Assembly: GCA_963790415.1 (NCBI GenBank)
Contig: CAWBOK010000003.1
Coordinates: 404,409 to 468,408, forward strand
Origin: an uncultured Actinomycetota bacterium
GTDB lineage: Bacteria; Actinomycetota; Thermoleophilia; RBG-16-64-13
Reading direction: 5' to 3'
DNA: 64,000 nt
The notes under the pieces are model-generated. The model searched no databases. It was given only the letters and a program-made list of their open reading frames with translations, and was not told the origin of the DNA. The translations under genes were made by a program, and so were the position numbers. This document shows, in pieces, positions 1 to 40,200 of the stretch. The stretch's first letter is position 1. Every line of letters begins with the position of its first letter.

Positions 1-325
1 GGCGGCCATGGGCGGCCGCTTCGCCAAGGTGGAGATGGGGCCGGTTATCGTGCTCTTCGACGCCACCCGGCCGGACGAGCTACTCGACATGGAGCTGATG
101 GGCCGTCTGGTGACCAGCCAACTGGCGGACGCCGACGTCGTGGCGGTCTCAAAGATCGACGCGGTCTCCCCCGCCGAGCGAGACCGGGCGATGGCCGCCG
201 CGAGAGAAGTGATCCCGGGAGCGGAATTCATCGGAGTGTCGTCGGTCACGGGCGAAGGGATCGACGCCCTCTTGGCCTACATCGTCGGCGGCCTTCAGCC
301 GGCTGGCTTAGAGGTGGAGGCTTGA
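1..325 (+). CDS. G3E-family P-loop GTPase (HypB/UreG/CobW/MeaB-like), C-terminal part; 5' end lies outside the window
   Basis: ORF 8..325 translation ends ...ADADVVAVSKIDAVSPAERDRAMAAAREVIPGAEFIGVSSVTGEGIDALLAYI, typical of the C-terminal half of G3E GTPases. Frame is open to the window edge. Confidence 0.55.
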   Translation, partial: AAMGGRFAKVEMGPVIVLFDATRPDELLDMELMGRLVTSQLADADVVAVSKIDAVSPAERDRAMAAAREVIPGAEFIGVSSVTGEGIDALLAYIVGGLQPAGLEVEA

Positions 326-813
326 GCGCCGACGACGCCTGCTATACCGATCATGGTGTCAGCGGGTATGGGGTGGCCATCAAGTTCCATCAGGATACCG
401 CCGTGGCTCCAGCGGAGGTGGGCGACTTTCTGCGGGAGATGATGGACGACATCGCTCAGGATTGCGTGCGACGCGGAGCCCGTTTCATCGGGCACATCAA
501 GTCGCACCTGGTGTGCGCTCAGGGTAGTCTCAAAGCCGACACTATCGGCATCAACCATCCGGCGGCGCTGCACGGTGAACTCTCGGGGCCCGCCAACGAC
601 CTGTACGTGGCCATCAACTCCATAGTGCAGGGCATCCCTGAGGACCAGGTGATGGAGGCGACCCTGGGTGCTGCCCACCGACTGGCGGAACGACATGGGT
701 TCCGCGTGGTCAAAGAGAAGGAGCACTTGTACTTCGACAAGTACGACTTTGCCAACGAAGAGGAGTATCTTGAGCAGCTCCGTCTGCAGTTCGAGGCGGA
801 GCCGGAACCGTAA
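322..813 (+). CDS. hypothetical protein between two G3E GTPase genes (possible chaperone partner or CobW C-domain-like)
   Basis: 163-aa ORF with ordinary non-Arg-rich composition, start overlapping the upstream stop by 4 nt. No family recognised. Confidence 0.4.
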   Translation: MSADDACYTDHGVSGYGVAIKFHQDTAVAPAEVGDFLREMMDDIAQDCVRRGARFIGHIKSHLVCAQGSLKADTIGINHPAALHGELSGPANDLYVAINSIVQGIPEDQVMEATLGAAHRLAERHGFRVVKEKEHLYFDKYDFANEEEYLEQLRLQFEAEPEP

Positions 814-833: not shown

Positions 834-1439
834 ATGGTGCGCGTGATATCGATCATCGGGCTGGTGGATTCGGGCAAGAGCAGCCTTATCCGGGTGCTCC
901 TCGACGCGGTGCGCTCCCGGGGTGAGTGCGGCGGCGTGGTGATCAACGACGCGGGGGCCGTGTCCCTGGACGTGCCTGAGATCACCGACCGGCACCCCGT
1001 GCGCACCATCGGAGGCGGTTGAATAGGGTGCAACGAAGCCGGGAGCTTCCAGACCGCGATCAAGTCGATGGCTCGAGACGACGGGGTGAGCGTGTTGTTC
1101 GCCGAACCGTCGGGTATCGTTATACCGTTCGAAATGCGCAACGCCATCAGCGCGGCGGGGCGTGACATACCCGTGACCGTGGGTCCGGTGGTGCTCCTGC
1201 TGAACGCCTCCGAGTCGGAGATGCTGTTCGGGGACGGGCTGGGCCATATCACCGCCCAGCAGATCGCACAGGCGGATATGGTGGCCATCACGAAGGCCGA
1301 TTCCGCTCGGGGTACGGAGATCCTCCGATTGGAGGAAGAGGTGGCGCGGCTGGCTCCCCAGACCCATCTGCACCACGTGAACATGCAGTCGGGCGAGGGT
1401 GTCGCCGCCCTCGCAGAAGCTATACTGGGTCCCCTGTAA
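834..1439 (+). CDS. CobW/COG0523-like G3E GTPase with in-frame UGA (candidate selenocysteine) in the CxCC metal-binding motif
   Basis: ORFs 834..1022 and 1068..1439 are in the same frame, separated only by TGA at 1020-1022 with no other stop. Walker A is IGLVDSGKSS. The CobW-like ENEFGE segment reads VVINDAGAV. The usual GCICC motif reads GGG-U-IGC. Downstream LFAEPSGIVIPFE and ITKAD motifs follow. A hairpin GAAGC-CGGGA-GCTTC lies at 1035-1049. Confidence 0.6.
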
Positions 1440-1549
1440 CGAAGGAGGTACCACTGAGGCGACGCTGTCACGGTTTGGCATGGTCGCGACCCGTGGGCGG
1501 AGCGCGAACGAACGTAGAGTTGGGTCAACATAAGGACAAAGGGGTGGAC

Positions 1550-2621
1550 ATGGCTTTGAAGACAGGTGAGATGACGGGCCTCGAGCGCATCGTCTCCGCA
1601 CTGCAACACAAGGAAGGCGACCGCGTGCCGGCGGGCCCGCTGGTGTGCGGGGCGGCTCGGCGGGTGCTGGGCGTCAACTTATCGGGACTGGGCACAGGAC
1701 TCCGACGTGACGATCGAGAGCATGGTCCAGGCGCAGAAGCTCATCAGGCCGGACGGGGTACTGTTGCTGGTGGATCTCTCCGTGGAGGGGGCCGACTTCG
1801 GCGGACCGATGGTCTTCCCCATCGAGGACACTCCGCATCCGGTGTACAAGGACAACCTGATCAAGACTCTCGACGACTACCACAAGGTCGAGCGGATCGA
1901 CCCGCGCAAGGCCAAGCGCATGAGCCATATGGTGCGCTACACCGACGGCGTCATGAAGGCCATGGGCAGCGAGACCGCTGTCATGACCTTCTGCTATGGC
2001 CCGCTGGGCATCCTCTCCATGCTGCGGGGCGCCGAGAAGCTGTTCCTCGACTGCATGAAGAACCCTGAGGTCGTTCACGAGGCCTCCGAGATCATCACCG
2101 ACGTGCTGCTCGAGCAGATCGACGCGCTATGCGAGACCGGCGTGCACGCCGTCGTGCTCGACACGCTGTTCGCGTCCGGTTCGATCATGAGCAAGGACCT
2201 GTGGATGAAGATGGAGGGGCCGTACGCCCGGCGCCTGGCCGAGCGCGTGCATAGCCACGGCAGGGCCGTGATCGTGCACAACTGCGGCAACAACGTGTAC
2301 TTCGACGTCCAGATCGAGACCATGGCGCCGGAGGCGATCAGCTTCGCCTACCTGCCCGACGACTGCAAGACGTCGCAAGAACTCAAAGACAAGTGGGGCG
2401 ACAAGACGTGCCTCATCGGATATGTGCCGCCGAGCCCGGACATGATGCTGCACACTCCCGAGCAGATCAAGGAGACGTGCAAGGAGCAGATCAAGGTGTT
2501 GGCCCCGGGCGGTGGGTTCATCCTCTCCACCGGGTGCGAGTTCCCGCCGAACGGTTCACTGCTCAGCGCCATAGCGATGATGGAAGCGGCCGACGAGTAC
2601 GGCTGGTATCCGATCGCATAG
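1550..2621 (+). CDS. MtaA/MtbA/CmuA-like methylcobamide:acceptor methyltransferase (uroporphyrinogen decarboxylase fold); reading frame changes near 1690
   Basis: N-terminus MALKTGEMTGLERIVSALQHKEGDRVPAGPLVCGAARRVLGVNLS (frame of ORF 1475) matches MtaA N-termini. The rest (ORF 1707..2621, a different frame) matches the UroD/MtaA family through the C-terminus. RBS aaagggg lies before ATG 1550. A single extra base around aacttatcgg restores VNYRDWAQDSDV. Confidence 0.7.
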
Positions 2622-2638
2622 TCGGGCTGCGTGTTTCT

Positions 2639-2669
2639 GGGGGGGCTTCGCCTCGGCGAAGCCCCCCAT
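2639..2669 (+). terminator. perfect GC-rich hairpin (GGGGGGCTTCGCC-tcg-GCGAAGCCCCCC) after the mtaA-like gene; no U-tract
   Basis: Inverted repeat read directly from the sequence, 18 nt downstream of the stop at 2621 and ahead of the corrinoid protein gene. Confidence 0.45.
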
Positions 2670-2706
2670 GCTACGAGGGTCAGTAGATAGTCACTAGGAG
2701 GGATCC

Positions 2707-3372
2707 ATGGGCACAGACGAACGATTCCAGGAACTGCTCGCCGAGATGAAAGACGGCGTCATCGAGTACGACGAGGACCGGGTGATCGCAGCCGCGCAGG
2801 CCGTCGTCGACGAGGGCTTCGACGCCTATGACGGCATCATGAACGGCCTGGCCGCCGGTATGGAAGTGGTGGGAGAGCTCTTCGACTCCCAGGAGTACTT
2901 CGTGCCCGAAGTCCTCATGTGCGCCGACGCCCTCTACGCCGGTCTCGACATCCTGCGTCCCAAGGTGGACATGGCGGGTCGCGAGACCATCAAGGGTGAA
3001 GTGGTCATCGGTGTGGTGGAAGGCGACGTGCACGACATCGGCAAGAACCTGGTCAAGATGATGTTCGAAGTGGCCGGCTTCACCGTCCACGACCTGGGCG
3101 CCGATGTGCCCATCGACGACTTCGTCGAGGCGCAGATCTCCACCAATTCCGACATCGTGTGCCTCTCCGCCATGATGACCACCACCATGATGGGCATGAA
3201 GAAGGCCATCGTGAAGCTGAAAGAGAAGAACCCCAACGTCATGATCATGCTCGGTGGCGCCCCCGTCACCGGCGAGATCGCCGACATGTTCGGCGCCGAC
3301 GGCTACTCCGAGAACGCCTCCAACGCCGTGTCGGAAGCCATCAAGATGGTGGCGGCGCTGCGGAAGATGTAG
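2707..3372 (+). CDS. corrinoid (cobalamin-binding) protein of methyltransferase systems (MtaC/MtbC/MttC-like)
   Basis: B12-binding DxHxxG motif (GDVHDIGKN), followed by a Rossmann-like C-domain (LSAMMTTTM...MLGGAP). RBS GGAGGG lies 5 nt before the ATG. Confidence 0.85.
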   Translation: MGTDERFQELLAEMKDGVIEYDEDRVIAAAQAVVDEGFDAYDGIMNGLAAGMEVVGELFDSQEYFVPEVLMCADALYAGLDILRPKVDMAGRETIKGEVVIGVVEGDVHDIGKNLVKMMFEVAGFTVHDLGADVPIDDFVEAQISTNSDIVCLSAMMTTTMMGMKKAIVKLKEKNPNVMIMLGGAPVTGEIADMFGADGYSENASNAVSEAIKMVAALRKM

Positions 3373-3427
3373 TACGGTTGTATCCGGAGGAGGGCGACAC
3401 GTCGCCCTCTTTTCCAGCTGTGCAGTG

Positions 3428-4282
3428 ATGGTGAGGTCGAGTGAGATGGTCGGCCGCGTGAGCAAGAAGAGACGAGTCAAGGCCCACGTGGGCCCGGTGG
3501 CGCGCCGCGCTCTGACCGCCGCGATGGAAGACATCGCGCGGGCCGCCGGCGCGGACGTCATCGGGTTCGGCGACGTCAGCGCGGCGCTGCCGGCCGATTT
3601 CCATCACCTGCCGGTGGGAGTATCGCTCGGCGTGGTGCATCCGGCCGTCCGATCGCTCCATCTACTGCCGGGAGGATCGCCTGCCGTCGAACTCGAGCGG
3701 GCCTTGGGCGATCATCGCGACAGGCATGCGCAGGTGTTGCTCGAGACGACCCTGAGCCGGCTGGCCGAATACCTGCAGACCCAGGGGTTTCGCTACTTCT
3801 GTTGTCCACCTGAGGTGGACCCTATGGACGCACCCTTCACTGCACTCCTTGTGCGTCGCTTCTCCCACAAAGCGGCCGCAACGTGTGCTGGGCTTGGTTG
3901 GGTGGGTAGGCACGGATTGCTGAACCACCCGGAGTATGGGCCGCATGTGACTTGGGCGACACTGGTGACCAACGCGCCTCTCGACGTCGGTGCTCCCATC
4001 GTCGAGAGCGCATGTGGGGACTGTAGCCTCTGCGTGTCCGCCTGTCCCGCCGGAGCGATATCCGGCCGGCCGTGGCGGCGCGATGATGGCATGGTGAGTC
4101 TGGTCGACGCCGAGAAGTGTCGCCAGATGTTGGTGGACAACGAGCGCGCCACAGGCCGCCGTTTCTGCGGGCGGTGCGTCGTTGTCTGCGCGGAGGCACG
4201 CATGGCCGCGCGTGGCGGCGTCTCCGCACGTTCGGACGAGAGAGGAGGTGGTGCGCGGCTGGACATGGAGAGCGCTCTATAG
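3428..4282 (+). CDS. QueG/RdhA-like iron-sulfur protein (epoxyqueuosine-reductase/reductive-dehalogenase superfamily) with two 4Fe-4S motifs
   Basis: CGDCSLCVSACPAG and CGRCVVVCAE cluster motifs. The N-terminal domain resembles QueG. The part of ORF 3254..4282 overlapping the corrinoid gene is treated as spurious, so the start is placed at the first ATG after 3372. Confidence 0.55.
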   Translation: MVRSSEMVGRVSKKRRVKAHVGPVARRALTAAMEDIARAAGADVIGFGDVSAALPADFHHLPVGVSLGVVHPAVRSLHLLPGGSPAVELERALGDHRDRHAQVLLETTLSRLAEYLQTQGFRYFCCPPEVDPMDAPFTALLVRRFSHKAAATCAGLGWVGRHGLLNHPEYGPHVTWATLVTNAPLDVGAPIVESACGDCSLCVSACPAGAISGRPWRRDDGMVSLVDAEKCRQMLVDNERATGRRFCGRCVVVCAEARMAARGGVSARSDERGGGARLDMESAL

Positions 4283-4302
4283 TCCCTCTACAACGAAGGA
4301 GG

Positions 4303-5238
4303 ATGATGGGTAAGCAGGCAGTCATAGATGCCTATGAAGGGCGCTATACCCCGGTCGTGCCGTGGGTGCCCTACGTGGGCGTCCACGGAGCATATCTGAT
4401 CGGGGAGACGGCCACGAAGGTGCTGCAGGATTCCGATCTACTGGCGAAGGCGGTGGTCAACGCCGCCGAACGCTACAAGGCCGACGGCATCCCGTTGATC
4501 TTCGATCTGGCCGTCGAGGCCATGTCGATGGGAATCACGGCCAAGTGGTTCGACGATAACCCACCTACGGTGATCGAGCATCCGCTGGCAGACAAGACCC
4601 TGGCGGAAGCGGGCCTGAAGATCCCCGGTCCCACCGACGGTCGTTTTCCGACGGTCATCGCGGCGGGCAAGAAGGCCAAAGCGCAGTTGGGCGACGTGGC
4701 CCTCATCGGCCTCGTGTGCGGCCCGCTCACCTTGGCCTCGCACATGCGCGGCGCCAAGATGTTCACCGACATGGTGAAGAAGCCCGAGCTCGCCATGGAG
4801 ATCATGGAGTTCGCGGGCAAGGTGTGCGCGGAGTCGGCGCGCATCTATGCCGAAGAGATCGGCTGCGACATCGTCGCACTGGTGGAGCCCGTTGGCAGCC
4901 AGGTGCGCCCGGACACCTACGACAAGTTCGTGATCCCGGCGTGCCAGGAAGCCTTGGACAACATCCACAAGGCCGGCAAGACCAGCGCTCTCTACATCTG
5001 CGGCGACGCCACCAAGATCGTCGAGAACATGATGTACACCGGCGCCAGCTGCGTGTGCGTCGACGAGCAGTTGAACATGAACTACGTGCGCGACTGCGCC
5101 CTCAAGTATGGTCGCGGCTTCGGCGGCAACCTGAAGCTGACCCTGGCCCTCTCCCTCGGGATCATCGATCCGCGGGAAGACGCCATCGTCAGCCTGGCGG
5201 CCGGCGGCAAGATCGGCTACACCTTCTCCCCTGGCTGA
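4303..5238 (+). CDS. second MtaA/UroD-family methylcobamide methyltransferase
   Basis: MMGKQAVIDAYEGRYTPVVPWVPYVG... shows UroD-family similarity along its full length. RBS GAAGGAGG sits immediately upstream. Intact 311 aa. Confidence 0.8.
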   Translation: MMGKQAVIDAYEGRYTPVVPWVPYVGVHGAYLIGETATKVLQDSDLLAKAVVNAAERYKADGIPLIFDLAVEAMSMGITAKWFDDNPPTVIEHPLADKTLAEAGLKIPGPTDGRFPTVIAAGKKAKAQLGDVALIGLVCGPLTLASHMRGAKMFTDMVKKPELAMEIMEFAGKVCAESARIYAEEIGCDIVALVEPVGSQVRPDTYDKFVIPACQEALDNIHKAGKTSALYICGDATKIVENMMYTGASCVCVDEQLNMNYVRDCALKYGRGFGGNLKLTLALSLGIIDPREDAIVSLAAGGKIGYTFSPG

Positions 5239-5240
5239 GA

Positions 5241-5375
5241 CATGCCCTATGACGTTCCGGTTGAGAACGTGGATAAGGTCATCGAAGTCAAGACCTGGTA
5301 CGAGACGTACTACGCGCACTATCCGAATGTCGACTACCCGTCGATCCTACCCAAACGCAGCCCAGTCAAGGCTTA
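5241..5375 (+). CDS. small ORF (44 aa, MPYDVPVENVDKVIEVKTWYETYYAHYPNVDYPSILPKRSPVKA)
   Basis: Fills the 150-nt gap between mtaA-2 and the thioredoxin-like gene with ordinary composition. Below the ORF-track length cut-off. Confidence 0.2.
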
Positions 5376-5391
5376 GAGGGAGGTGACCCAC

Positions 5392-5733
5392 GTGGCTGAC
5401 GACAAGATCCTTGTCGAGGTGCTCACGCTCGACTCCCTTCAGTGACCGGCCTGCGGGTACATGGTCGATGTACTCAATACGCTGCCGCCGCAAGTGAAGG
5501 AATTCATCGAGTACAAGGAGTGGTCCATCAAGAACCCTGAGGGCATCCAGATGTTCATGGCCCGCAAGGGGAAGGTGCTGCCCACCTTGTGCATCAATGA
5601 AGCGTGCGTCTACGAGAGCATCATCCCGACTCTGGACGAACTCTACGAGACGCTGATCGCCGCTGCAAAGAGCGACTCTCAGAGGGAGACCCTCCGCGCG
5701 GCCTTCGACAAGGCCATGGAGGAGTACAACTAG
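5392..5733 (+). CDS. small thioredoxin-fold protein (Thioredoxin_3-like) with UxxC active site; candidate selenoprotein
   Basis: RBS AGGGAGG lies 9 nt before GTG 5392. In-frame translation is MADDKILVEVLTLDSLQ-U(TGA 5443-5445)-PACGYMVDVLNTL...LPTLCINEACVYESIIPTLDELYE. The beta1/CxxC/alpha1 layout and the C-terminal cis-Pro region are those of the fold. An 8-bp hairpin GGGTACAT-GGTCG-ATGTACTC lies at 5455-5475, 9 nt after the UGA. Confidence 0.6.
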
Positions 5734-5884
5734 ATCGAGACCGGATTCCCTCCGGTGGATGCTGGGGCGGCGGCCGCGAATGCGGCCGCCGCCCCGCCTC
5801 ACTCTCGGCTCTAGTAGGCTGTCGAAGATGATCGAGGACGGTGTATCGCGCCACCCAGCGCTGTACACGCAAGGAGTCGACTCC

Positions 5885-6444
5885 ATGGCGGTGAGACGCA
5901 TCTGCATGCACGCCTGTGGGGGCATCACCCGCGTAGGAGCGACCGTCGGCCCGACTGGCCACGTACATGGTGGCCGAGGAACTGCTCCCCGAGAAGACGC
6001 TCATCTCGTGTGCTCCGGCGTTTCTGCGCGGCGTCGAGGAGGACGTGCTCATGGTGCTGAAGAGCCCTTCCTTCGCCCTCGACGGCTGCGAGTGGAGCTG
6101 CGGCACCAACCTGCTCTATCTGGCCGGCATCACGCCTGCGGTGCGCTTCCTGCTGCCCGAGTACGCGGAGGCGCAGGGCTTCGATCTCTCGGGAGGCAGC
6201 CGCCGCTTTCCGTCGGGGGTGACGCAGGAGTTCGCCCGAGTCGTCGCCGAGCGGGTGGCCGGCATCGCCGAAGGCATGATGGCTCGAGGCGGCGCGTACC
6301 AGTTCCAGCCGGCCCGAACTCAAGATGCAGCCGGACAAGTGGTTCCGCACGGCGCCGAACATGGAGGGCATCATGGAGTTCGTCCGTATCGAACCGGGCG
6401 TGTATCGGCCCGTGACTATGCCGCTTCTGCCCGAAGAGGCCTGA
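5885..6444 (+). pseudogene. DGC-domain protein paralog 1, interrupted by at least two +1 frame changes
   Basis: N-terminus MAVRRICMHACGGITRVGA is in one frame, ARLATYMVAEELLPEKTLISCAPAFLRGVEEDVLMVLKSPSFALDGCEWSCGTN in a second, and RPELKMQPDKWFRTAPNMEGIMEFVRIEPG in a third. Each segment aligns with the downstream intact paralog. RBS AAGGAG lies before ATG 5885. Confidence 0.5.
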
Positions 6445-6445
6445 C

Positions 6446-7069
6446 ATGGCGGTGGAGAAGGTGACCATCTTCCCTTGTGGGGGGATCGGCGACCCGGTGT
6501 CGTCGGTGACCCGGCTGGCCGGCTACGTTCTGGCGGAGGATCTTCTGCCCGGACCGAGTGGAGCTGGTCGAGTATCCCCCCGATCATCACCGGCGTGCCG
6601 GAGGAACTGGAGGCCGGTGCAGGCCTATCCGGTGATCGTCCTCGACGGCTGCGGCCACCGCTGTGGCTCCAATGCGCTGAATCTGGTGGGCATCAAGCCG
6701 GCGGCCCGCCTCTTCACGCCCCGGGTGCGTTCGGACACCAAGCACGCCATCGGGAAGCGGCGACCGTTCCCGGAGGTGTCGGGTCAGAAGCTGGCAAAGG
6801 ACCTGGCTGAGAGGGCCGCCGCCATCGCCCGCCACATGCTCGAAGACCCGGCGTACGTCTTCGCACGACAGACGGTCAGGCCCAACCCCGAGGGACTCCA
6901 CGACGAGTCCTTGGATATCGAGTCCGCCATGGGGTATGAGGAGATAGAGACGGGCTGCTTCCAATGCGCCGGAATGTGCGCGTTCAAGATGCGGGACGAT
7001 CCCGAGGTGCGCCGCATGCTCGAAGAGGACGTCGAGGAGATCGAGGATGTGGAGGACCTGAGGCCGTGA
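6446..7069 (+). CDS. DGC-domain protein paralog 2 (CGGI...DGC...CGSN motifs, acidic C-terminal tail)
   Basis: Continuous 207-aa ORF: IFPCGGIGDPVSSVTRLAGYVLAEDLLP...VIVLDGCGHRCGSNALNLVGIKPA...ETGCFQCAGMCAF. The middle segment PSGAGRVSPRSSPACRRNW has odd composition, and an alternative frame reads IITGVPEEL. Confidence 0.55.
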   Translation: MAVEKVTIFPCGGIGDPVSSVTRLAGYVLAEDLLPGPSGAGRVSPRSSPACRRNWRPVQAYPVIVLDGCGHRCGSNALNLVGIKPAARLFTPRVRSDTKHAIGKRRPFPEVSGQKLAKDLAERAAAIARHMLEDPAYVFARQTVRPNPEGLHDESLDIESAMGYEEIETGCFQCAGMCAFKMRDDPEVRRMLEEDVEEIEDVEDLRP

Positions 7070-7281
7070 TCGTTCGCCTGCTGCTGCGTGGCTGAGTGAC
7101 CTGCGGTCCGGCGGTGCGTCGGGCTCTGGAATCCACGCCCGAGGTGGAGCTCGTGGCCATGGATTGGGACGAGCACTGGGCAGACGTGCGCTTCCTCGAC
7201 CCCACATACGGGTACCGTCAGTTGCAGACCCGCCTGATGCTCGCGGGCGCTTGGTGCGACGTGTGGCCGAAGGAGGTGTGA
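7066..7281 (+). CDS. mini thioredoxin-fold protein with UxxC motif; candidate selenoprotein
   Basis: GTG 7066 overlaps the DGC-2 stop, with GGAGGA 9 nt upstream. Translation is MIVRLLLRG-U(TGA 7093-7095)-VTCGPAVRRALESTPEVELVAMDW... A hairpin CCGGCG-GUG-CGUCGG lies at 7108-7122, extendable to 9 bp with wobble pairs. Confidence 0.5.
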
Positions 7282-7682
7282 TGATGACCCGATCTCTGCA
7301 GGGTTTGCCCGCGCTGAACATACAGGTGGTCTCCGAAGGCGGGCACTGCGTTCCCTGACTGATCGCGATAGACGCCACCCGGGAGGTGGCGGCGGAGTTC
7401 GCTGAGGGCGAGGTGGCCGTCGAGGTGGTCACGCTGAAGGAACCTGCCGGCGCGGAACGGTACCGCGAGTTGCGGCGTTCGGCGGGGCAGCACCTTCCTG
7501 TTCCGTGCGTACTTCTGGAAGGGCGTCTGGTCTCCCCGGGAATCCCGGAACCGGACGGGCTTCGCGAGGTCATCCGAGAGGCGCTGCTCCACGGTCCGCC
7601 AGAGTTCGGCGACGCGACTCCCAGCGACGAGGCTCCCGGTGACGCCAGGACGGTCGACGAGAGGGTGGGCACGGCGGAGTGA
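7281..7682 (+). CDS. thioredoxin-fold protein (Thioredoxin_3-like) with CxxU motif; candidate selenoprotein
   Basis: ATG 7281 with AGGAGG 5 nt upstream. Translation is MMTRSLQGLPALNIQVVSEGGHCVP-U(TGA 7356-7358)-LIAIDATREVAAEFAEGEVAVEVVTL...LPVPCVLLEGRLVSPGIPEPDGLREVI. The cis-Pro/GR region of the thioredoxin fold is present. A hairpin CGCCACC-CGGGA-GGTGGCG lies at 7373-7391. Confidence 0.6.
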
Positions 7683-8275
7683 TCCTGCTGCGGGGGTTCT
7701 ACGGACAGACCGTCGAGATCGAAGAGGACCGTCTCTACGACGGCGCCGAGGAGCTGTGGGTGCGGGACATGGGCGACCGCGTGCGCGTCGGCGTTACGAA
7801 GGTCGGCGTGCTCCTGATGGGCGGCATCGAGTCCACGGAGTTCTTCGTGGAGCCCGGCGACCACATCGAGAAGGACGGCGACCTGGTCTTCTTCGAGACC
7901 TTCAAGGCGGTCCGCTACGTGCTCGCTCCGCTGACCGGGGAGGTGATCGTGGTCAACGACAAGGTGGTCGACGACCCGGAGTTGTTCGACGACGATCCCT
8001 ACGGCGAGGCCTGGTTGGTCGAGGTTCGCCCGGCTTCCCCGGGCTGGGCGGATTCGTCGCTGAACTCGCCGCAGGACTATGCCTCGGCGCTTGAGCGCTC
8101 GGAGCATTGCGCCGAGGGATCGGAGGTCTTGCTCGAGGTCAAGAAAGGCTCCCCCACGTGCCGTTCGCTCTACGGCGGCATCCGTGGGAACGAGCCCGGC
8201 GAGGGGAGTCTCAGCTGGAGAGACCCCGCCGCCGGCGGTGCGCGACCTCCAGAGGAGGAAGGCACCGCCGACTGA
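7679..8275 (+). CDS. glycine-cleavage H-protein-like (lipoyl-domain fold) protein with extended C-terminus
   Basis: LWVRDMGDRVRVGVTKVGVLLMGGIESTEFFVEPGDHIEKDGDLVFFETFKAVRYVLAPLTGEVIVVNDKVVDDPELFDDDPYGEAWLVEV matches the GcvH family, including the ETFKA lysine position. Start overlaps the upstream stop. Confidence 0.65.
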   Translation: MILLRGFYGQTVEIEEDRLYDGAEELWVRDMGDRVRVGVTKVGVLLMGGIESTEFFVEPGDHIEKDGDLVFFETFKAVRYVLAPLTGEVIVVNDKVVDDPELFDDDPYGEAWLVEVRPASPGWADSSLNSPQDYASALERSEHCAEGSEVLLEVKKGSPTCRSLYGGIRGNEPGEGSLSWRDPAAGGARPPEEEGTAD

Positions 8276-13316: not shown

Positions 13317-14582
13317 CTAGCGGCCGTCCCGGGTGGGCCGTCGCCGAAGGTCGGGCCCGGGTGCGCGTTTCCGGCCCGACGAAGTCTTCGTCGCGGATCC
13401 GGTCGTCGTCGACGGATCCGACCCGCGGGTGGCCTTGTTCTCGGACTTCGCGCCAGGGTACTCAGGGGCGTCGCGAACGGTTCGGCGTCGGGAACCGCCC
13501 GCCACGAGCTGACCGCATGCCGCGGCGATGGACCGCCCGCGGCTCTCCCTCGTGCTGACCTCGACCCCGCGGGTCTTGAGCGCGTTCATGAAGGCGACCA
13601 TGACCTCGGGAGGCGACGGGCTGAAGTCGCCGCATGCGGGGTTCCAAGGGATGAGATTCACCGTGACCACACGCCCGCGCAGAAGATCGGCCAGGACGTT
13701 GGCCTGCCGGGGAGAGTCGTTCACTTCGGCGAGCAGCAGGTACTCGACGAAGAGTTTGCGTCGGGTCAATGCAAAATGATCGTCGCAGGCGCTCAGCACG
13801 TCCCGCAGGGGGAAGCGGCGGTTCGCCGGTATCAATCGGGTGCGGAGCTCGTCGTCGGCGGCATGGAGGGAGAGCGCCAGATTGACCTGTGGTTCTTCCC
13901 GCGCAAGGCGCCGGATACCCGCGGGGACCCCGATGGTCGAGACCGCGAGGGAGCGGGCCGAGTGCCCCATGCCGCTGGGATCGTGCAGGAGCTTCAGGGA
14001 GAGCAGGACCGCGTCGAGGTTCAGCAGTGGTTCTCCCATACCCATGTAGACGACGTTGGTGACGCGCCGCCCCTCTTCCGCAAGCAGCGCGCGGGCCTCG
14101 CGCACCTGGTCCACGATCTCGGCTGCGCTCAGGTTCCGGGTGAAGCCGAGGGAGCCGGTGGCGCAGAACGCGCACCCCAGGGCACAGCCCACTTGGGTCG
14201 ACACGCACACGGTGCTCCGCTTGGCACTGCGCATGATGACCGCTTCAAGGGCGACGTCATCGTCGACGGCCTTCAGAAGGAGCTTCGTGGTGCCGTCGGG
14301 ATCGTCGAACCGCGCCGCGACGGCGAGCGTGGAATGGCCCGCCTCGTCGAGGGCCACCCGCAGCGGGCCGGGCAGATTCGTAGCCTCGGTGAACGAGAGG
14401 CCGGGATGTTGGGTGAGATGTTCGTAGACCTGCTTGTAGCGGTAGGCGGGCGCAGCCTGTTCGCTCAGGATGGCGGCCAGATCGGGACGATAGCTGCCGA
14501 TGTCGGCCCTGGCGGGCGGCGACGTCGACGGCGGCGGCGACCGGTCGGCGGTCGAGCCACGGGAGGGGCGACGCGCGCTCAT
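13317..14582 (-). CDS. rlmN: radical-SAM 23S rRNA/tRNA adenine-C2 methyltransferase RlmN
   Basis: YRYKQVYEHL N-terminal motif, CxxxCxxC radical-SAM cluster (VGCALGCAFCATG), GMGEPLLN, and conserved C-terminal region. Confidence 0.85.
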   Translation of the reverse strand: MSARRPSRGSTADRSPPPSTSPPARADIGSYRPDLAAILSEQAAPAYRYKQVYEHLTQHPGLSFTEATNLPGPLRVALDEAGHSTLAVAARFDDPDGTTKLLLKAVDDDVALEAVIMRSAKRSTVCVSTQVGCALGCAFCATGSLGFTRNLSAAEIVDQVREARALLAEEGRRVTNVVYMGMGEPLLNLDAVLLSLKLLHDPSGMGHSARSLAVSTIGVPAGIRRLAREEPQVNLALSLHAADDELRTRLIPANRRFPLRDVLSACDDHFALTRRKLFVEYLLLAEVNDSPRQANVLADLLRGRVVTVNLIPWNPACGDFSPSPPEVMVAFMNALKTRGVEVSTRESRGRSIAAACGQLVAGGSRRRTVRDAPEYPGAKSENKATRGSDPSTTTGSATKTSSGRKRAPGPDLRRRPTRDGR

Positions 14583-15415
14583 GTCGCGGCGCTGAGCACG
14601 AGGCGGATCACGCTGCCGCGCTGGGCTCCGAGCAGTTCCGCGGCACTGGCCTCGTTGAGAGTCAGTCCGGCGTGGCCCCACGAATCCCGCAGCAGGCCGA
14701 GTTCGCCGGGCTTGAGATCGGCGAAGGTACGGACCACGCGCGCGGTCCAGGTGGGGTCCGGTTCTCCTTCTACCATCACGCCGACCGCGTCGGCGATCAG
14801 ACGCACGCTGTCGAGGTCCAGGCTGAGGGCGACGTTGCCGAAGCGATCGACTTCCACCACTTCGGTGCGTACCGCGTCAGGCAGTCGCTCGAGCAGCGCG
14901 GGCGCGAGGGTGGCCAGACTCTCCGCCGGTATTGGTTCGGCCAGCACGGCCAGGGGTGTACCGCAGGCGAGAAGTGCCGCGGCCGGGGCGAAGAGGTCTC
15001 GCCCATGAAAAGTGGATGAGAGCCCATTGACGGGAAGAGCAGCGGTCAGGCGTACCCGTTCGGGAATCAGACGCCACGCCGAGAGTATGCCCCCCAGGGC
15101 TGCCGCCGCCGGCCCGAGCAGGCCGTTATCCGGCCCCACCAGGAGATCACTGCGGTTCGTCTGGAGCACGATGGGCCTCCGTTCGGTGCCCACGCTAGGG
15201 TCCACCACGGCCAGATGGACGGCGGGCGGGGCCAACGGCGCCACGCGGGCGAGCGTCGTGGCGCCGTCGCGCACGTCGCCCAGGGCCACTCCGTGAGAGA
15301 CATGAAGCACGCGAGCGTGGGGGCAGACCGCCGCGAGTATGGCCTCACACGCGGCCACATAGCCACCTTGCCAACCGAAGTCACTGAGAAAAGTGATGAG
15401 TTCGTACCGCTCCAC
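14579..15415 (-). CDS. SAM hydroxide adenosyltransferase / fluorinase-chlorinase family (DUF62) protein
   Basis: ELITFLSDFGWQGGYVAACEAIL N-terminus and the C-terminal beta-barrel region of the family. Confidence 0.7.
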   Translation of the reverse strand: MERYELITFLSDFGWQGGYVAACEAILAAVCPHARVLHVSHGVALGDVRDGATTLARVAPLAPPAVHLAVVDPSVGTERRPIVLQTNRSDLLVGPDNGLLGPAAAALGGILSAWRLIPERVRLTAALPVNGLSSTFHGRDLFAPAAALLACGTPLAVLAEPIPAESLATLAPALLERLPDAVRTEVVEVDRFGNVALSLDLDSVRLIADAVGVMVEGEPDPTWTARVVRTFADLKPGELGLLRDSWGHAGLTLNEASAAELLGAQRGSVIRLVLSAAT

Positions 15416-39143: not shown

Positions 39144-39296
39144 GTGTCTGTCCTTTCGATGAACCTACGCCGCGGATGCCGACCGATGCTATCAGCATAG
39201 CGTCTTGCGCCTACACCGGGAACCCCGACGGCTCAGCTCCATCTGGCGACGGCCATCTGCTACCATGACTCCCATCCACACGTAAAGGAGGCCTCC

Positions 39297-39584
39297 ATGG
39301 GCGGCGTCTACGGCACTCCCGACATCCGCATCACTGTCACCGAGGTCCAAGGCTCCGGGAAGGCACCCTGCGGGTACCAGCCCGGCGACTCGTGGCTGGT
39401 CACCGATCTGTGTGCACCCGAAGGGCTCTGCACGTGGGCGATCGCTTCCATCGCCCCGTATCTTGCCACCCTTCGCTTTGGAGGCAGCGTGCCGTGGGAG
39501 GATGACAAGGATAGGGTCGTGGCGTGCTGTTCAGACGCCGCGAACCCCGTGGCGTTCGAACTGCGCAGACTTCCGGCTTCCTAG
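39297..39584 (+). CDS. TIGR04076-family small Cys-rich protein
   Basis: CTWAIASIAPYLATLRFGG...ACCSDAANPVAFEL signature, RBS AAAGGAGG upstream. Confidence 0.55.
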   Translation: MGGVYGTPDIRITVTEVQGSGKAPCGYQPGDSWLVTDLCAPEGLCTWAIASIAPYLATLRFGGSVPWEDDKDRVVACCSDAANPVAFELRRLPAS

Positions 39585-39588
39585 TCCG

Positions 39589-40200
39589 ATGACGTACCAC
39601 GGCGCCGCACAAGAGTTGCAGTTCCTCGTTGAGAGGGCAAAGGATTTCGGGGCAACGCACGCCGCGCTGATGCCCGCCGAGCGGGTAGTGGTGGATGAGC
39701 GCGTGCGGTTGAAGTGCGCCGTACCGGTGTGCCAGGGCTACGGGAACTACCTGCACTGCCCGCCCAACACCATGTCGGTGGCCGAGTTCCGCGTTGTGCT
39801 CGAGCGGTTCTCCGTGGCGCTGCTGGTGCAGGTCGAGTCCGAGCGGAACTCCGCCGATCTGGACGCGCAGGGGCTGGCGGGGAAGAACGCGGCCGAACTC
39901 GAGGCCCTGCTCCATGGCGAACCGAACCTACTGCTCGGCCGCGTCATCACCCAGATGGAGGCCGAGGCGTTCAAGGCCGGTTACTACTACGCCGCCGGCT
40001 TCAGCGGGGGCATCTGTCTGCTATGCCCGGAGTGCGTCGGCGTGGGTAGCGGCAAACCCTGTCGCCGACCGTACGAGGCCCGTCCGTCGATGGAGGCCGT
40101 GGGCATCGACGTGTTCAAGACCGCGGCCAACGCGGGTCTGGCCATCTCGTTGTCGTCGGATCAACCTGTGAGGTGGACCGGATTGGTCCTGGTGGACTAG
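39589..40200 (+). CDS. DUF2284 predicted metal-binding protein
   Basis: KCAVPVCQGYGNYLHCPP...ICLLCPECVG motifs. Start MTYHGAAQEL lies 4 nt after the upstream stop. Confidence 0.55.
   Translation: MTYHGAAQELQFLVERAKDFGATHAALMPAERVVVDERVRLKCAVPVCQGYGNYLHCPPNTMSVAEFRVVLERFSVALLVQVESERNSADLDAQGLAGKNAAELEALLHGEPNLLLGRVITQMEAEAFKAGYYYAAGFSGGICLLCPECVGVGSGKPCRRPYEARPSMEAVGIDVFKTAANAGLAISLSSDQPVRWTGLVLVD

What the first reader, a model, noticed from the sequence alone, without database searches (positions are those of the whole stretch)
834..8275. Corrinoid methyltransferase-type operon encoding four candidate selenoproteins (four in-frame UGA, each with a downstream hairpin)
Four genes in a single 8-kb plus-strand operon each contain exactly one in-frame TGA: 1020-1022, 5443-5445, 7093-7095 and 7356-7358. 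In every case the TGA falls on the position of a conserved metal- or redox-active Cys (CobW CxCC; thioredoxin CxxC as UxxC, UxxC and CxxU). Each TGA is followed 9-15 nt downstream by a GC-rich stem-loop with a G-rich apical loop (CGGGA, GGUCG, GUG, CGGGA), the layout of bacterial SECIS elements. The surrounding genes form a corrinoid methyl-transfer module: two MtaA/UroD-like methyltransferases, a corrinoid protein, a QueG-like Fe-S protein, CobW-like GTPases, two DGC-domain proteins and a GcvH-like protein. I know of no described methyltransferase system combining these with Sec-thioredoxin-fold proteins. The substrate-specific MtxB/MttB-type methyltransferase is absent, so the substrate and the final acceptor are open. 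One speculation is that a protein dithiol/selenol-thiol relay is coupled to methyl transfer.
Basis: partly seen in the sequence, partly recalled or inferred. Interest (0 to 1): 0.9.

Follow-up and report, generated by a model that had tools for sequence, protein, structure and literature searches.

The report
Five-selenoprotein corrinoid methyltransferase gene cluster
This stretch of an uncultured actinobacterial (Thermoleophilia-type) genome carries a vitamin-B12-type methyl-transfer operon in which five, not four, genes use the stop codon UGA to insert selenocysteine, one of them a methyltransferase type not listed as a selenoprotein in a 2026 review, and the gene set suggests methyl transfer on arsenic- or selenium-like compounds.

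Summary
All four in-frame TGAs sit at the stated coordinates. Each is conserved in 8-21 independent related assemblies and is followed by a conserved hairpin with suppressed synonymous variation. Three of them align with Cys in homologues; for the fourth (7093) the only Cys support is a weak alignment to MerP.

It joins the second MtaA/URO-D gene to the '44-aa ORF' and replaces the C-terminal zinc-ligand Cys. This Sec/Cys family spans Actinomycetota, Clostridiales and Desulfomonilaceae, including cultured Desulfomonile tiedjei, and has no NCBIfam model.

The protein at 7093 is HMA/MerP-like, not thioredoxin-like.

The operon is cut by the window edge. Syntenic contigs show RACo, MtrH, a third MtaA-like gene, a second corrinoid gene, CbbQ/VWA and a Cys-type CobW upstream, so tetrahydrofolate is the likely methyl partner.

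In other phyla the same core sits next to thioredoxin reductase or to lipoyl synthase, lipoate ligase and lipoamide dehydrogenase. In one subclade the GcvH-like protein is fused to an ArsM-like domain.

My best reading is Sec-assisted corrinoid methyl transfer on a soft metalloid or chalcogen, coupled to a dithiol/selenol relay. The closest precedent is the SdmABC / type-1 mlp clusters. Sec machinery could not be checked, and six single-base frameshifts in the window look like assembly errors.

The parts
2..325 (+). 3' part of a CobW/G3E GTPase gene, the Cys-type paralogue with GGGCICCE in full-length orthologues. It is cut by the window edge.
   Evidence: Pfam cobW, weak hit. It is 94% identical to L001:6982-7620, and the full-length orthologue scores 122 bits against NF041053.
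322..813 (+). Conserved 163-aa protein of unknown family. It always lies between the two CobW paralogues.
   Evidence: No Pfam or NCBIfam hit. It is syntenic in L001, L005, L007, L010, L011, L016 and L020.
834..1439 (+). Gene A: CobW-related GTPase selenoprotein with motif GGG-U-IGC. The Sec codon is at 1020-1022 and the SECIS-like hairpin at 1035-1049 (GAAGC/CGGGA/GCUUC).
   Evidence: NF041053 at 121.9 bits, below the cutoff of 180. TGA in 8/8 loci. All 27 database homologues are post-TGA fragments. U aligns with the first Cys of CxCC in the paralogue.
1550..2621 (+). Gene B: MtaA/URO-D methyltransferase with canonical His-x-Cys...Cys motifs (VHNCG, STGC). It is interrupted in the window by a 1-base insertion at 1679.
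   Evidence: After repair, Pfam URO-D covers 4-346/346 of the profile. The insertion is absent from L001.
2707..3372 (+). Gene C: methyltransferase-cognate corrinoid protein.
   Evidence: TIGR02370 at 202 bits, plus B12-binding and B12-binding_2. An identical protein is encoded twice in L001/L002.
3446..4282 (+). Gene D: QueG/reductive-dehalogenase-like protein with two [4Fe-4S] motifs.
   Evidence: TIGR00276 and TIGR02486, partial matches. It aligns to PDB 5D08 QueG residues 165-275 and to PceA.
4306..5376 (+). Gene E+F: one MtaA/URO-D-family ORF with a fifth Sec codon at 5236-5238 (FSPG-U-DMPYDVPVENV). The hairpin is at 5252-5270 (ACGUUC/CGGUUGA/GAACGU). The His ligand is replaced (LYICGD).
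   Evidence: TGA in 21 loci and Cys in 3. Full-length Cys homologues read APGCDMPYDVP. In the alignment to MtaA 4AY7, U matches the Cys of PGC and HiCG becomes YICG. The TIGR01463 match extends to profile positions 37-335/340 once the two ORFs are fused. Synonymous-site suppression p = 0.007.
5392..5733 (+). Gene G: thioredoxin-like selenoprotein with motif Q-U-PAC. The Sec codon is at 5443-5445 and the hairpin at 5455-5475 (GGGUACAU/GGUCG/AUGUACUC).
   Evidence: NF047660, weak hit at 26 bits. TGA in 21 loci, and CAAC (Cys) in D. tiedjei, Desulfomonilaceae and Clostridiales homologues. It lies directly downstream of E in all three phyla.
5885..6444 (+). Gene H: DGC-domain protein 1. It is broken in the window by 1-base insertions at 5946 and 6308.
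   Evidence: Pfam DGC after repair. Indels relative to L001.
6446..7069 (+). Gene I: DGC-domain protein 2. It carries three 1-base insertions at 6553, 6569 and 6616, which together restore the frame.
   Evidence: Pfam DGC after repair. Indels relative to L001.
7066..7281 (+). Gene J: small HMA/MerP-like selenoprotein (RG-U-VTC plus an invariant C-terminal Cys). The Sec codon is at 7093-7095 and the hairpin at 7105-7125.
   Evidence: The profile matches MerP 1AFI at E = 0.01, with U on the first Cys of MTCxxC. Pfam HMA is a weak hit in 5/13 orthologues. TGA in 18/18 loci. The gene is lost or degraded in six loci. Only fragments were found among 1.84 billion representatives.
7281..7682 (+). Gene K: thioredoxin-like selenoprotein with motif H-C-V-P-U. 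The Sec codon is at 7356-7358 and the hairpin at 7374-7390 (GCCACC/CGGGA/GGUGGC).
   Evidence: NF047660 at 76 bits, below the cutoff of 105. There are Sec and Cys (CVPC) forms among close relatives. One compensatory change occurs in L015. The orthologue in L034 lies next to a TrxR-like gene.
7679..8275 (+). Gene L: GcvH-related protein with the lipoyl-lysine motif conserved (ETFK76A).
   Evidence: NF045810 at 110 bits, below the cutoff of 150. The alignment to GcvH 1ONL and 1DXM puts ESVK over ETFK. It is fused to an ArsM-like domain in L037/L038.

Best explanation
The five in-frame UGAs are selenocysteine codons read through local SECIS hairpins.

The genes are the 3' two-thirds of a conserved cluster found in Thermoleophilia-type genomes. 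The cluster encodes three things.

1. A corrinoid methyl-transfer pathway. RACo activase, MtrH-type methyl-corrinoid:tetrahydrofolate methyltransferase and one His-Cys-Cys MtaA-type methyltransferase lie upstream of the window. Inside the window are a second His-Cys-Cys MtaA-type enzyme (B) and the corrinoid protein (C).

2. A metal-delivery set. CbbQ/VWA is upstream. The two CobW-type GTPases and the 163-aa partner are in the window, and one GTPase has Sec in its metal-binding motif.

3. A Cys/Sec relay. Its centre is an unusual MtaA-family enzyme (E) whose zinc triad His-Cys-Cys has become Tyr-Cys-Sec. Its invariable neighbour is the thioredoxin-like protein G. The relay also includes thioredoxin-like K, MerP-like J, two Cys-rich DGC proteins and a lipoyl-type GcvH.

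Inferred mechanism. A methyl group moves between tetrahydrofolate and a soft heteroatom substrate by way of Co(I)/CH3-Co(III). The substrate or product is held on Cys/Sec ligands of E and the small carriers. Each turnover, or the substrate itself, needs two-electron reduction. That reduction would be delivered as NAD(P)H to TrxR or Lpd, then to K or lipoyl-GcvH, then to G, then to E.

The leading specific substrate candidate is arsenic or a similar metalloid. Methylated selenium or sulfur species are the next candidates.

Shown: the Sec-codon signatures, the domain identities, the synteny and the Sec/Cys pairs.
Inferred: the direction of methyl flow, the order of the relay and the substrate.
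For: Sec decoding:
- The TGAs are conserved across 8-21 assemblies.
- Cys replaces U in homologues of A's paralogue, E, G and K.
- The hairpins are conserved with suppressed synonymous change, against a hairpin background of 10.8%.
- Where K has reverted to Cys (L027), the hairpin has decayed.
- D. tiedjei, which carries the E-type TGA, has other selenoproteins (bioRxiv 10.1101/2022.07.06.499078).

Pathway:
- Pfam and NCBIfam domain assignments.
- Upstream RACo, MtrH, MtaA-like and corrinoid genes in L001/L002, L033 and L037.

Relay:
- E and G are adjacent in three phyla.
- In Desulfomonilaceae a K-like protein lies next to a TrxR-like protein (307 bits).
- In Clostridiales the cluster includes two DGC genes, GcvH, LipA, LplA and an Lpd-like gene.
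- The lipoyl-Lys is conserved in L.

E active site:
- In the alignment to MtaA 4AY7, His becomes Tyr and the Cys ligand becomes Sec.

Metalloid lead:
- The GcvH-like protein is fused to an ArsM-like domain: NF008823 at 169 bits, with PDB ArsM 5EVJ and 4FR0 as the best structural-sequence matches.
- That domain keeps the Cys equivalents of the ArsM GCGNP and SNC motifs, but its DLGxGxG motif has degenerated.
- J is MerP-like with three Cys/Sec ligands.

Precedent:
- SdmABC and the type-1 mlp clusters are multi-MtaA-plus-corrinoid systems for methyl-selenide or methyl-sulfur compounds (PMC10418091, PMC11097638).
Against: - No selA, selB, selD or tRNA-Sec is present in the 64-kb window or in any fetched locus.
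- Covariation support for the hairpins is one event each at the J and K sites and is not significant by shuffling. Folding z-scores are not significant.
- None of the five proteins reaches the curated cutoff of an NCBIfam selenoprotein family.
- I recognised no arsenic-resistance genes next to the clusters from the called-gene Pfam listings and ORF layout. No dedicated ars search was run.
- The ArsM-like fusion was found in L037 and L038. L013 is the same contig as L037, and in L014 and L025 the fusion is only suspected from a truncated GcvH match. The domain may not bind SAM.
- No TrxR or Lpd gene is in the Thermoleophilia operon itself.
- Three genes of the window copy carry frameshifts.
- No expression or biochemical data exist.
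Confidence: 0.6

Rival explanations
1. The cluster is a methyl-selenide or methyl-sulfur salvage system of the SdmABC / type-1 mlp kind. MtaA-like enzymes demethylate dimethylselenide, methaneselenol, dimethyl diselenide or their sulfur analogues onto the corrinoid protein. The Trx/GcvH relay reduces Se-Se or S-S bonds. The Sec/Cys carriers pass selenide on to selenophosphate synthesis.
For: The cluster has several His-Cys-Cys MtaA-like genes, a corrinoid protein and a RACE/RACo activase, as described for the mlp clusters. ClMlp2 shows selenide-dependent demethylation of methylcobalamin, and 87% of species with an mlp cluster have Sec machinery (PMC10418091). The sdm-like operon is induced by selenium starvation, and dimethyl diselenide, which would need reduction, is used as a selenium source (PMC11097638). 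An operon with five Sec codons also implies a heavy selenium economy.
Against: Type-1 mlp clusters characteristically lack an H4folate methyltransferase, whereas MtrH is present here. E lacks the His-Cys-Cys triad said to be near-invariant in Mlps. The ArsM-like fusion and the MerP-like J point to metalloids or metals. Orthology to Mlp1, Mlp2 or Mlp3 was not tested.
Confidence: 0.25
2. The cluster is an ordinary C1 (O- or N-demethylase-type) corrinoid pathway feeding tetrahydrofolate. The Sec/Cys proteins, the DGC proteins and GcvH serve only to protect or repair oxidised zinc-thiolate or corrinoid sites, or to insert metal. They do not handle the substrate.
For: The set MtrH + MtaA-like + corrinoid + RACo is the standard bacterial demethylase layout (PMC10418091, introduction and results). 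The CobW, CbbQ and VWA genes look like maturation factors. In L005 the CobW module is followed by the CbiMNQO cobalt transporter and lacks the Trx/DGC/GcvH genes.
Against: E and G are adjacent across three phyla, even where no corrinoid gene is nearby (D. tiedjei). The Sec sits in E's substrate- or metal-binding position. Dedicated TrxR or Lpd/LipA/LplA genes are recruited to the cluster in other phyla.
Confidence: 0.1
3. The TGAs are real stops or errors. On this reading the operon is decaying, or the assembly is faulty, and the 'selenoproteins' are truncated pseudogenes. Alternatively UGA is read as another amino acid.
For: The window copy has six single-base frameshifts in B, H and I. No Sec machinery is seen.
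Against: The same five TGAs recur in up to 21 independent assemblies from different samples and phyla. The reading frame, the downstream protein sequence and the downstream hairpins are all conserved. The frameshifts are private to the window, and L001 has different frameshifts of its own. TGA terminates genes H, I, J, K and L in the same operon at ends consistent with homologues. The aligned residue in homologues is Cys, with one Trp (TGG) and one Ser variant at the E site.
Confidence: 0.03

Closest known systems
Type-1 mlp gene clusters (Kountz & Balskus 2023, PMC10418091) and SdmABC of Methanococcus (Niess & Klein 2004; PMC11097638)
   Same: They have several MtaA-like URO-D-superfamily methyltransferases plus a corrinoid protein and a RACE/RACo activase, with no MtxB/MttB-type enzyme. 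They have been proposed, and partly shown, to act on methyl-selenium or methyl-sulfur compounds, and they are associated with Sec-using organisms.
   Different: Here an MtrH-type H4folate methyltransferase is present. One MtaA-like enzyme has Tyr-Cys-Sec instead of His-Cys-Cys. Five genes are themselves selenoproteins. Trx-like, HMA-like, DGC, GcvH-like, QueG-like, CobW and CbbQ/VWA genes are added. The host is Actinomycetota. Orthology to Mlp1-3 was not tested.
MtaA, methylcobalamin:coenzyme M methyltransferase (PDB 4AY7)
   Same: E aligns over residues 42-329 (E = 1.6e-17) and shares the same barrel family. The Cys of HxC is conserved, and the C-terminal PGC Cys is the position of Sec.
   Different: The His ligand is replaced by Tyr (Phe in other phyla) and the Cys ligand by Sec. 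E always has a thioredoxin-like partner, which implies redox cycling that is not known for MtaA.
CobW-related selenoprotein NF041053 (first reported from the Olavius delta-1 symbiont; table in PMC13188914)
   Same: It is a short G3E GTPase with a UxxC motif at the CxCC metal site. A scores 121.9 bits over the whole profile.
   Different: The score is below the curated cutoff of 180. The Cys-type paralogue scores equally well. Here the Sec and Cys paralogues are paired around a 163-aa partner, next to CbbQ/VWA.
[quoted passage not shown]
   Same: K (76 bits) and G (26 bits) match this thioredoxin-like family across the whole profile. The L034 orthologue scores 86 bits and lies next to a TrxR-like gene.
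   Different: In K the Sec is at the fourth position (H-C-V-P-U), not the first (H-U-I-P-C). Both proteins are below the cutoff of 105. The source paper could not be read, so its described neighbourhood is unknown to me.
MerP/CopZ HMA domain and the UxxU metal-binding selenoprotein NF041115
   Same: The J profile aligns its U-x-x-C motif with the MTCxxC metal site of MerP. There are weak hits to NF041115 and Pfam HMA.
   Different: All matches are weak (E around 0.01). J has UxxC plus a third invariant Cys, no signal peptide was evident, and it is restricted to this lineage.
ArsM/AS3MT arsenite methyltransferase with thioredoxin as reductant; also arsenite methyltransferase selenoproteins (PMC13188914 table)
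   Same: Soft-ligand (Cys/Sec) binding sites are combined with a dithiol reductant. An ArsM-like domain is physically fused to the cluster's GcvH-like protein in L037/L038.
   Different: The methyl carrier here is a corrinoid protein linked to MtrH, not SAM. The fused domain has a degenerate SAM motif. I recognised no ars genes nearby.
Glycine/betaine reductase (GrdA CxxU, GrdB UxxC, thioredoxin system); comparison from my own knowledge and PMC6778437
   Same: Small CxxU and UxxC selenoproteins are re-reduced by a thioredoxin-type system during the handling of methylated or alkylated substrates.
   Different: There is no sequence relationship to the Grd proteins, and that system has no corrinoid component.

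Membership tests
Bacterial selenoprotein gene (Sec-UGA) | An in-frame UGA is conserved in orthologues, with coding sequence conserved on both sides. | tested here: met
   TGA counts are 8/8 (A), 21 of 24 (E), 21 of 24 (G), 18/18 (J) and 21 of 30 (K). Flanking peptides are conserved.
Bacterial selenoprotein gene (Sec-UGA) | Homologues carry Cys at the aligned position. | tested here: met
   K has CVPC forms. E has APGC forms. G has QCAAC in L030, L031 and L034. A aligns with GGGCICC in its paralogue. For J the only support is the remote MerP alignment, and no Cys form was found.
Bacterial selenoprotein gene (Sec-UGA) | A SECIS-like hairpin lies immediately downstream, with the apical loop about 16-37 nt from the UGA and G in the loop. 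| tested here: met
   Loops start 17-21 nt after the UGA at all five sites. Synonymous variation is suppressed. Covariation is weak. No dedicated bSECIS predictor was available.
Bacterial selenoprotein gene (Sec-UGA) | selA, selB, selC and selD are present in the same genome. | not testable with these tools
   None is present in the 64-kb window or in the fetched loci. The rest of the source genome could not be reached.
MtaA/CmuA methyltransferase family (TIGR01463; URO-D superfamily) | Full-length URO-D barrel homology. | tested here: met
   For B, Pfam URO-D covers 4-346/346. For E+F, TIGR01463 covers 37-335/340 at 120 bits and PDB 4AY7 matches at E = 1.6e-17. Both are below the curated cutoff of 235.
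MtaA/CmuA methyltransferase family (TIGR01463; URO-D superfamily) | A His-x-Cys...Cys zinc triad, the S/Se-methyltransferase type. | tested here: not met
   In E the triad is Tyr-Ile-Cys...Sec. The triad is met in B (VHNCG...STGC) and in the upstream MtaA-like protein (YHICG...PGC).
Type-1 mlp gene cluster | [quoted passage not shown] | tested here: met
   The window together with the syntenic upstream region of L001/L002, L033 and L037 meets this.
Type-1 mlp gene cluster | The Mlps belong to the Mlp2 and Mlp3 clades, and the H4folate methyltransferase is typically absent. | tested here: inconclusive
   Clade membership was not tested because no reference sequences were held. MtrH is present here, which departs from the description in PMC10418091.
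CobW-related selenoprotein NF041053 | A score at or above the curated cutoff (180 bits), with UxxC at the CxCC site. | tested here: not met
   The score is 121.9 bits. The motif G-U-I-G-C is present. A is a relative, not a curated member.
HUIPC thioredoxin-like selenoprotein NF047660 | A score at or above 105 bits and the H-U-I-P-C motif. | tested here: not met
   K scores 76.3 bits with H-C-V-P-U. G scores 26 bits with Q-U-P-A-C.
HMA (heavy-metal-associated) domain | A profile match with the CxxC motif in the loop between the first strand and first helix. | tested here: inconclusive
   Pfam HMA gives E = 0.037, below the cutoff. The PDB MerP match is E = 0.01 with the motif aligned.
Glycine-cleavage H protein (lipoyl carrier) | The GCV_H fold with the lipoyl-lysine in an E-S/T-x-K-A motif. 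| tested here: met
   Pfam GCV_H scores 75 bits. K76 aligns with the ESVK lysine of 1ONL and 1DXM. NF045810 scores 110 bits, below the cutoff of 150. Lipoylation itself was not tested.

The most novel reading that the evidence does not exclude
The cluster is a SAM-independent pathway that depends on a corrinoid and on selenocysteine, and that methylates or demethylates arsenic (or Sb/Se/Te) under anoxic conditions. As(III) or a methyl-arsenical would be held on the Cys/Cys/Sec site of the MtaA-like enzyme E and on the MerP-like, Trx-like, DGC and lipoyl carriers. The methyl group would be exchanged with tetrahydrofolate through the corrinoid protein and MtrH. The As(V)/As(III) step would be driven by the Trx/lipoyl relay. 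If true, this would supply the unidentified enzymes behind two old observations, both recalled from my own knowledge: corrinoid-dependent arsenic methylation in anaerobe extracts, and anaerobic demethylation of methylarsenicals in soils.
Probability: 0.22. Interest if true: 0.92.

Novelty: new variant of a known kind. Interest (0 to 1): 0.78.

Why it matters
1. It would add a selenoprotein family: an MtaA/URO-D methyltransferase with Sec at the zinc-ligand Cys. This family is absent from the 2026 selenoproteome review and from NCBIfam. It is systematically annotated as a truncated 310-aa protein in three phyla, including the cultured, fully sequenced Desulfomonile tiedjei, so it can be tested directly.

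2. With five Sec codons in about 6.5 kb, this is among the densest selenoprotein operons known, and it lies in Actinomycetota, a phylum not mentioned in that review.

3. It links corrinoid methyl transfer physically to a thioredoxin/lipoyl dithiol relay. That link is not part of any characterised corrinoid methyltransferase system. It gives a concrete candidate for anaerobic metalloid (arsenic or selenium) methyl cycling.

4. On the practical side, gene callers split all five genes, so metagenome annotations of these clusters are wrong.

Tried and rejected
- Rfam gathering scan of the window: no hit.
- ARAGORN on the window and 13 loci: no tRNA-Sec.
- Pfam scan of 30 further window ORFs: no selA, selB or selD.
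- Whole-segment MFE z-scores for the four hairpins: not significant in this 65% GC sequence.
- Covariation counts on the J and K hairpins: one compensatory pair each, not significant by shuffling. I relied instead on synonymous-site suppression.
- Exact look-ups to recover the source contig beyond the window: failed.
I judged the other structure jobs uninformative and did not run them.
- The mec dichloromethane cassette was considered and rejected. It has no DGC, GcvH or Trx components and a different gene set.
- Literature search for the DGC domain returned only diguanylate-cyclase papers.
- Haft & Tolstoy 2025 (mSystems 10:e0141724), the probable source of NF047660 and possibly of NF045810, is not held. 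I cannot exclude that it describes part of this neighbourhood.
- The radical-SAM gene conserved downstream turned out to be RlmN, a housekeeping gene.
- I recognised no ars genes in the called-gene listings and ORF layout of the flanks I examined. No dedicated search for them was run.

Full report
**1. The observation**

The plus strand from the window start to 8275 is one gene array. Its genes are:

| Gene | Coordinates | Identity |
|---|---|---|
| (unnamed) | 2-325 | truncated CobW-type gene |
| (unnamed) | 322-813 | 163-aa ORF |
| A | 834-1439 | CobW-like |
| B | 1550-2621 | URO-D/MtaA |
| C | 2707-3372 | corrinoid protein |
| D | 3446-4282 | QueG/RdhA-like Fe-S protein |
| E | 4306-5238 | URO-D/MtaA |
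| F | 5242-5376 | 44 codons |
| G | 5392-5733 | thioredoxin-like |
| H | 5885-6444 | DGC domain |
| I | 6446-7069 | DGC domain |
| J | 7066-7281 | HMA/MerP-like |
| K | 7281-7682 | thioredoxin-like |
| L | 7679-8275 | GcvH-like |

Pfam and NCBIfam confirm the domain calls.

**2. Is it more than chance?**

An exact-protein look-up and two collection scans brought in related loci, and look-ups of homologues found by protein search added more. About 30 loci are informative, out of 38 fetched. They come from Actinomycetota/Thermoleophilia/Gaiellales MAGs and metagenomes, and later from Clostridiales and Desulfomonilaceae.

Codon state at each site:
- Site 1020: TGA in 8/8 loci.
- Site 5443: TGA in 21 loci, Cys in 3.
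- Site 7093: TGA in 18/18 loci.
- Site 7356: TGA in 21 loci, Cys in 9 by tblastn. Among direct orthologues the split is 20 versus 4.

The sequence just downstream of each TGA is nearly invariant. Against L001, which is 91-95% identical overall, there are 0-1 changes in about 45 nt after each TGA. Codon entropy at positions with conserved amino acids is lower in the 12 codons after the UGA than elsewhere in the gene: p = 0.004 (A), 0.003 (G), 0.004 (J), 0.07 (K) and 0.007 (E).

The hairpins have apical loops that start 17-21 nt after the UGA. The stem/loop/stem sequences are:
- A: GAAGC/CGGGA/GCUUC
- G: GGGUACAU/GGUCG/AUGUACUC
- J: CCGGC/(G)GUG(C)/GUCGG
- K: GCCACC/CGGGA/GGUGGC

A hairpin meeting the same criterion follows 10.8% of 11,303 in-frame codons.

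Base-pair variation is sparse. There are G-U wobbles and one compensatory change at each of two sites: K in L015 (GCUACC/GGUAGC) and J in L010 (UCGGC/GCCGA). Shuffle controls are not significant, and MFE z-scores are not significant either.

Where K has become Cys (L027), the hairpin has drifted. TGA is also a normal stop for H, I, J, K and L, so a genome-wide reassignment of UGA is excluded.

**3. Cys alignment**

- A: the upstream paralogue reads GGGCICCE where A reads GGG-U-IGCN. All 27 database homologues of A are fragments that start after the TGA.
- K: close relatives include full-length CVPC forms and TGA forms.
- G: the D. tiedjei, Desulfomonilaceae and Clostridiales homologues read Q-C-AAC.
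- J: no Cys form was found, and only fragments turned up in 1.84 billion representatives. The J profile aligns with MerP at E = 0.01, with U on the first Cys of MTCxxC, and Pfam HMA is a weak hit. J is therefore HMA/MerP-like, not thioredoxin-like. It has been lost or degraded in six loci.

**4. A fifth Sec codon**

The 'stop' of E (5236-5238, TGA) is in frame with F. Read through, the sequence is ...GYTFSPG-U-DMPYDVPVENV...

- The TGA is present in 21 loci.
- The stem ACGUUC/GAACGU follows it, and D. tiedjei has a hairpin in a shifted register.
- Fusing E and F extends the MtaA/CmuA match to the end of the profile.
- A family search gave 946 hits in two length classes: about 310 aa ending in ...PG, and about 345 aa reading APGCDMPYDVP.
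- Against the solved MtaA structure 4AY7, U aligns with the Cys of PGC, and HiCG becomes YICG.

E therefore has Tyr-Cys-Sec where MtaA-type enzymes have His-Cys-Cys. No specific NCBIfam model exists for this family. The 2026 review lists no URO-D or MtaA selenoprotein.

**5. Wider anatomy**

The window cuts the operon. In L001/L002 (91-95% identical to the window), and in the compact versions L033 and L037, the genes upstream are:
- CobA and a GntR regulator;
- (Fer2-)RACo;
- MtrH;
- a His-Cys-Cys MtaA-like gene;
- a corrinoid gene that encodes a protein identical to C;
- CbbQ-type AAA and VWA genes;
- the Cys-type CobW.

The block D-E/F-G-H-I-(J)-K-L is syntenic in all actinobacterial loci. 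The CobW module also occurs alone, next to CbiMNQO.

Context in other phyla:
- Clostridiales (L031): corrinoid-RACo-MtrH-MtaA-DGC-DGC-GcvH-(UTPC Trx-like)-E(Sec)-G(Cys)-LipA-LplA-Lpd-like-MFS-GcvH-MIP.
- Desulfomonilaceae (L034): E(Sec)-G-MtrH-MtaA-corrinoid-K-like-TrxR-like-RACo.
- D. tiedjei (L030): E(Sec)-G.

The lipoyl-lysine of L is conserved. In L037 and L038 the GcvH-like protein is fused to an ArsM-like domain that keeps two arsenic-binding Cys positions but has a degenerate SAM motif.

**6. Mechanism**

Shown:
- Sec-codon signatures at five sites.
- A complete corrinoid methyl-transfer set linked to tetrahydrofolate.
- A Cys/Sec enzyme-partner pair (E-G) that is conserved across phyla and repeatedly joined to NAD(P)H-disulfide reductase systems.

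Inferred:
- The methyl group moves between tetrahydrofolate and a soft heteroatom held on Cys/Sec.
- A two-electron dithiol/selenol relay serves E.
- The CobW and CbbQ/VWA genes load metal.

Substrate:
- Arsenic or a similar metalloid is the leading candidate, on the ArsM-like fusion, the MerP-like J, the three soft ligands and the lipoyl dithiol.
- Methyl-selenium or methyl-sulfur is the main rival, on the precedent of SdmABC and the type-1 mlp clusters (PMC10418091, PMC11097638).

**7. Comparison and novelty**

Relatives of three of the small selenoproteins are already curated (NF041053, NF047660, NF041115; PMC13188914), but none of the five proteins here reaches a curated cutoff. The cluster works like an mlp/Sdm system, with three differences: MtrH is present, E has an altered triad, and there is a Sec/dithiol relay. 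I rate it a new variant of a known kind that contains an apparently undescribed selenoprotein family.

**8. Caveats**

- Sec machinery could not be examined.
- The window has six private 1-base insertions. L001 has different frameshifts, in MtrH and apparently in VWA, SLH and the response regulator (split gene calls). These are therefore most likely long-read assembly errors.
- One key paper could not be read.

Noticed in passing
window 5236-5238 (with ORFs 4306-5238 and 5242-5376): A fifth in-frame TGA joins the second URO-D/MtaA gene to the '44-aa ORF'. U replaces the C-terminal zinc-ligand Cys (PGC). The family has Sec and Cys forms in three phyla, including Desulfomonile tiedjei.
   Followed up: yes
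window 1679, 5946, 6308, 6553, 6569, 6616: Six single-base insertions relative to L001 break genes B, H and I (I carries three that together restore the frame). Five of the six fall within 700 bases of the two DGC genes. L001 has its own, different frameshifts, so assembly error is likely, but strain-specific decay of the DGC genes is not excluded.
   Followed up: partly
window 1 (5' edge); L001 1-7300, L002 3400-14600: The operon runs off the window. Upstream in the syntenic contig are CobA, GntR, Fer2, RACo, MtrH, an MtaA-like gene, a corrinoid gene, CbbQ-AAA, VWA and the Cys-type CobW.
   Followed up: yes
L001 2638-3303 and 10001-10666: Two corrinoid genes in one cluster encode the identical 221-aa protein. 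The window copy is 98% identical in DNA to the upstream L001 copy over 680 bases. This suggests recent duplication or gene conversion of an MtaA-plus-corrinoid module.
   Followed up: no
L037 13347-14564 (also L038 4750-5967): The GcvH-related protein is fused to an ArsM-like methyltransferase domain (NF008823 at 169 bits). The Cys residues of the GCG and NC motifs are kept, but the SAM glycine loop has degenerated (DLGGRVWED).
   Followed up: partly
L001 11580-11743 (between genes D and E): A 164-base insertion absent from the window, with terminal inverted repeats (GGCTGTTGAAA...TTTCAACAGCC). It looks like a miniature transposable element.
   Followed up: no
window 2640-2669, 3391-3414, 5764-5795: Strong GC-rich hairpins sit in the intergenic gaps after genes B, C and G. 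The one after G has a perfect 14-bp stem. None has a full T tract, so they may be partial terminators or mRNA-processing or stability elements within the operon.
   Followed up: no
L007 7864, L008 1198, L019 1354, L027 4144; L008 and L019 upstream of K: K has switched from Sec to Cys (TGT/TGC) in several close lineages. In L008 and L019 the neighbouring J gene has lost its N-terminal U-x-x-C part, and in L012, L021 and L026 J is absent (L028 keeps a remnant).
   Followed up: partly
protein P0208 (E-family homologue): One E-family member has Trp (SPGWDMPYDVP) at the Sec/Cys position, one base away from TGA. P0193 has Ser there.
   Followed up: no
window 39201-40200: A small Cys-rich ORF is followed by a DUF2284 'predicted metal-binding' protein (131 bits). 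The review lists DUF2284 as a fusion partner of arsenite methyltransferase selenoproteins. It lies 31 kb from the operon, and no link was shown.
   Followed up: no
L031 9678: The Clostridiales cluster has an extra thioredoxin-like gene upstream of E with its own in-frame TGA (FVQ-U-TPC), while its G orthologue downstream of E is the Cys form.
   Followed up: partly
window 13317-15415 (minus strand) and L033, L037, L011, L014, L025: RlmN and a SAM hydroxide adenosyltransferase (DUF62) gene follow the cluster in several of the actinobacterial loci with enough downstream sequence (Pfam-called in the window, L033, L037/L038; inferred from ORF sizes in L011, L014, L025). The cluster therefore sits in a stable chromosomal position. 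In the window an SLH protein, a two-component system and a 500-aa Fe-S membrane protein are inserted in between.
   Followed up: partly
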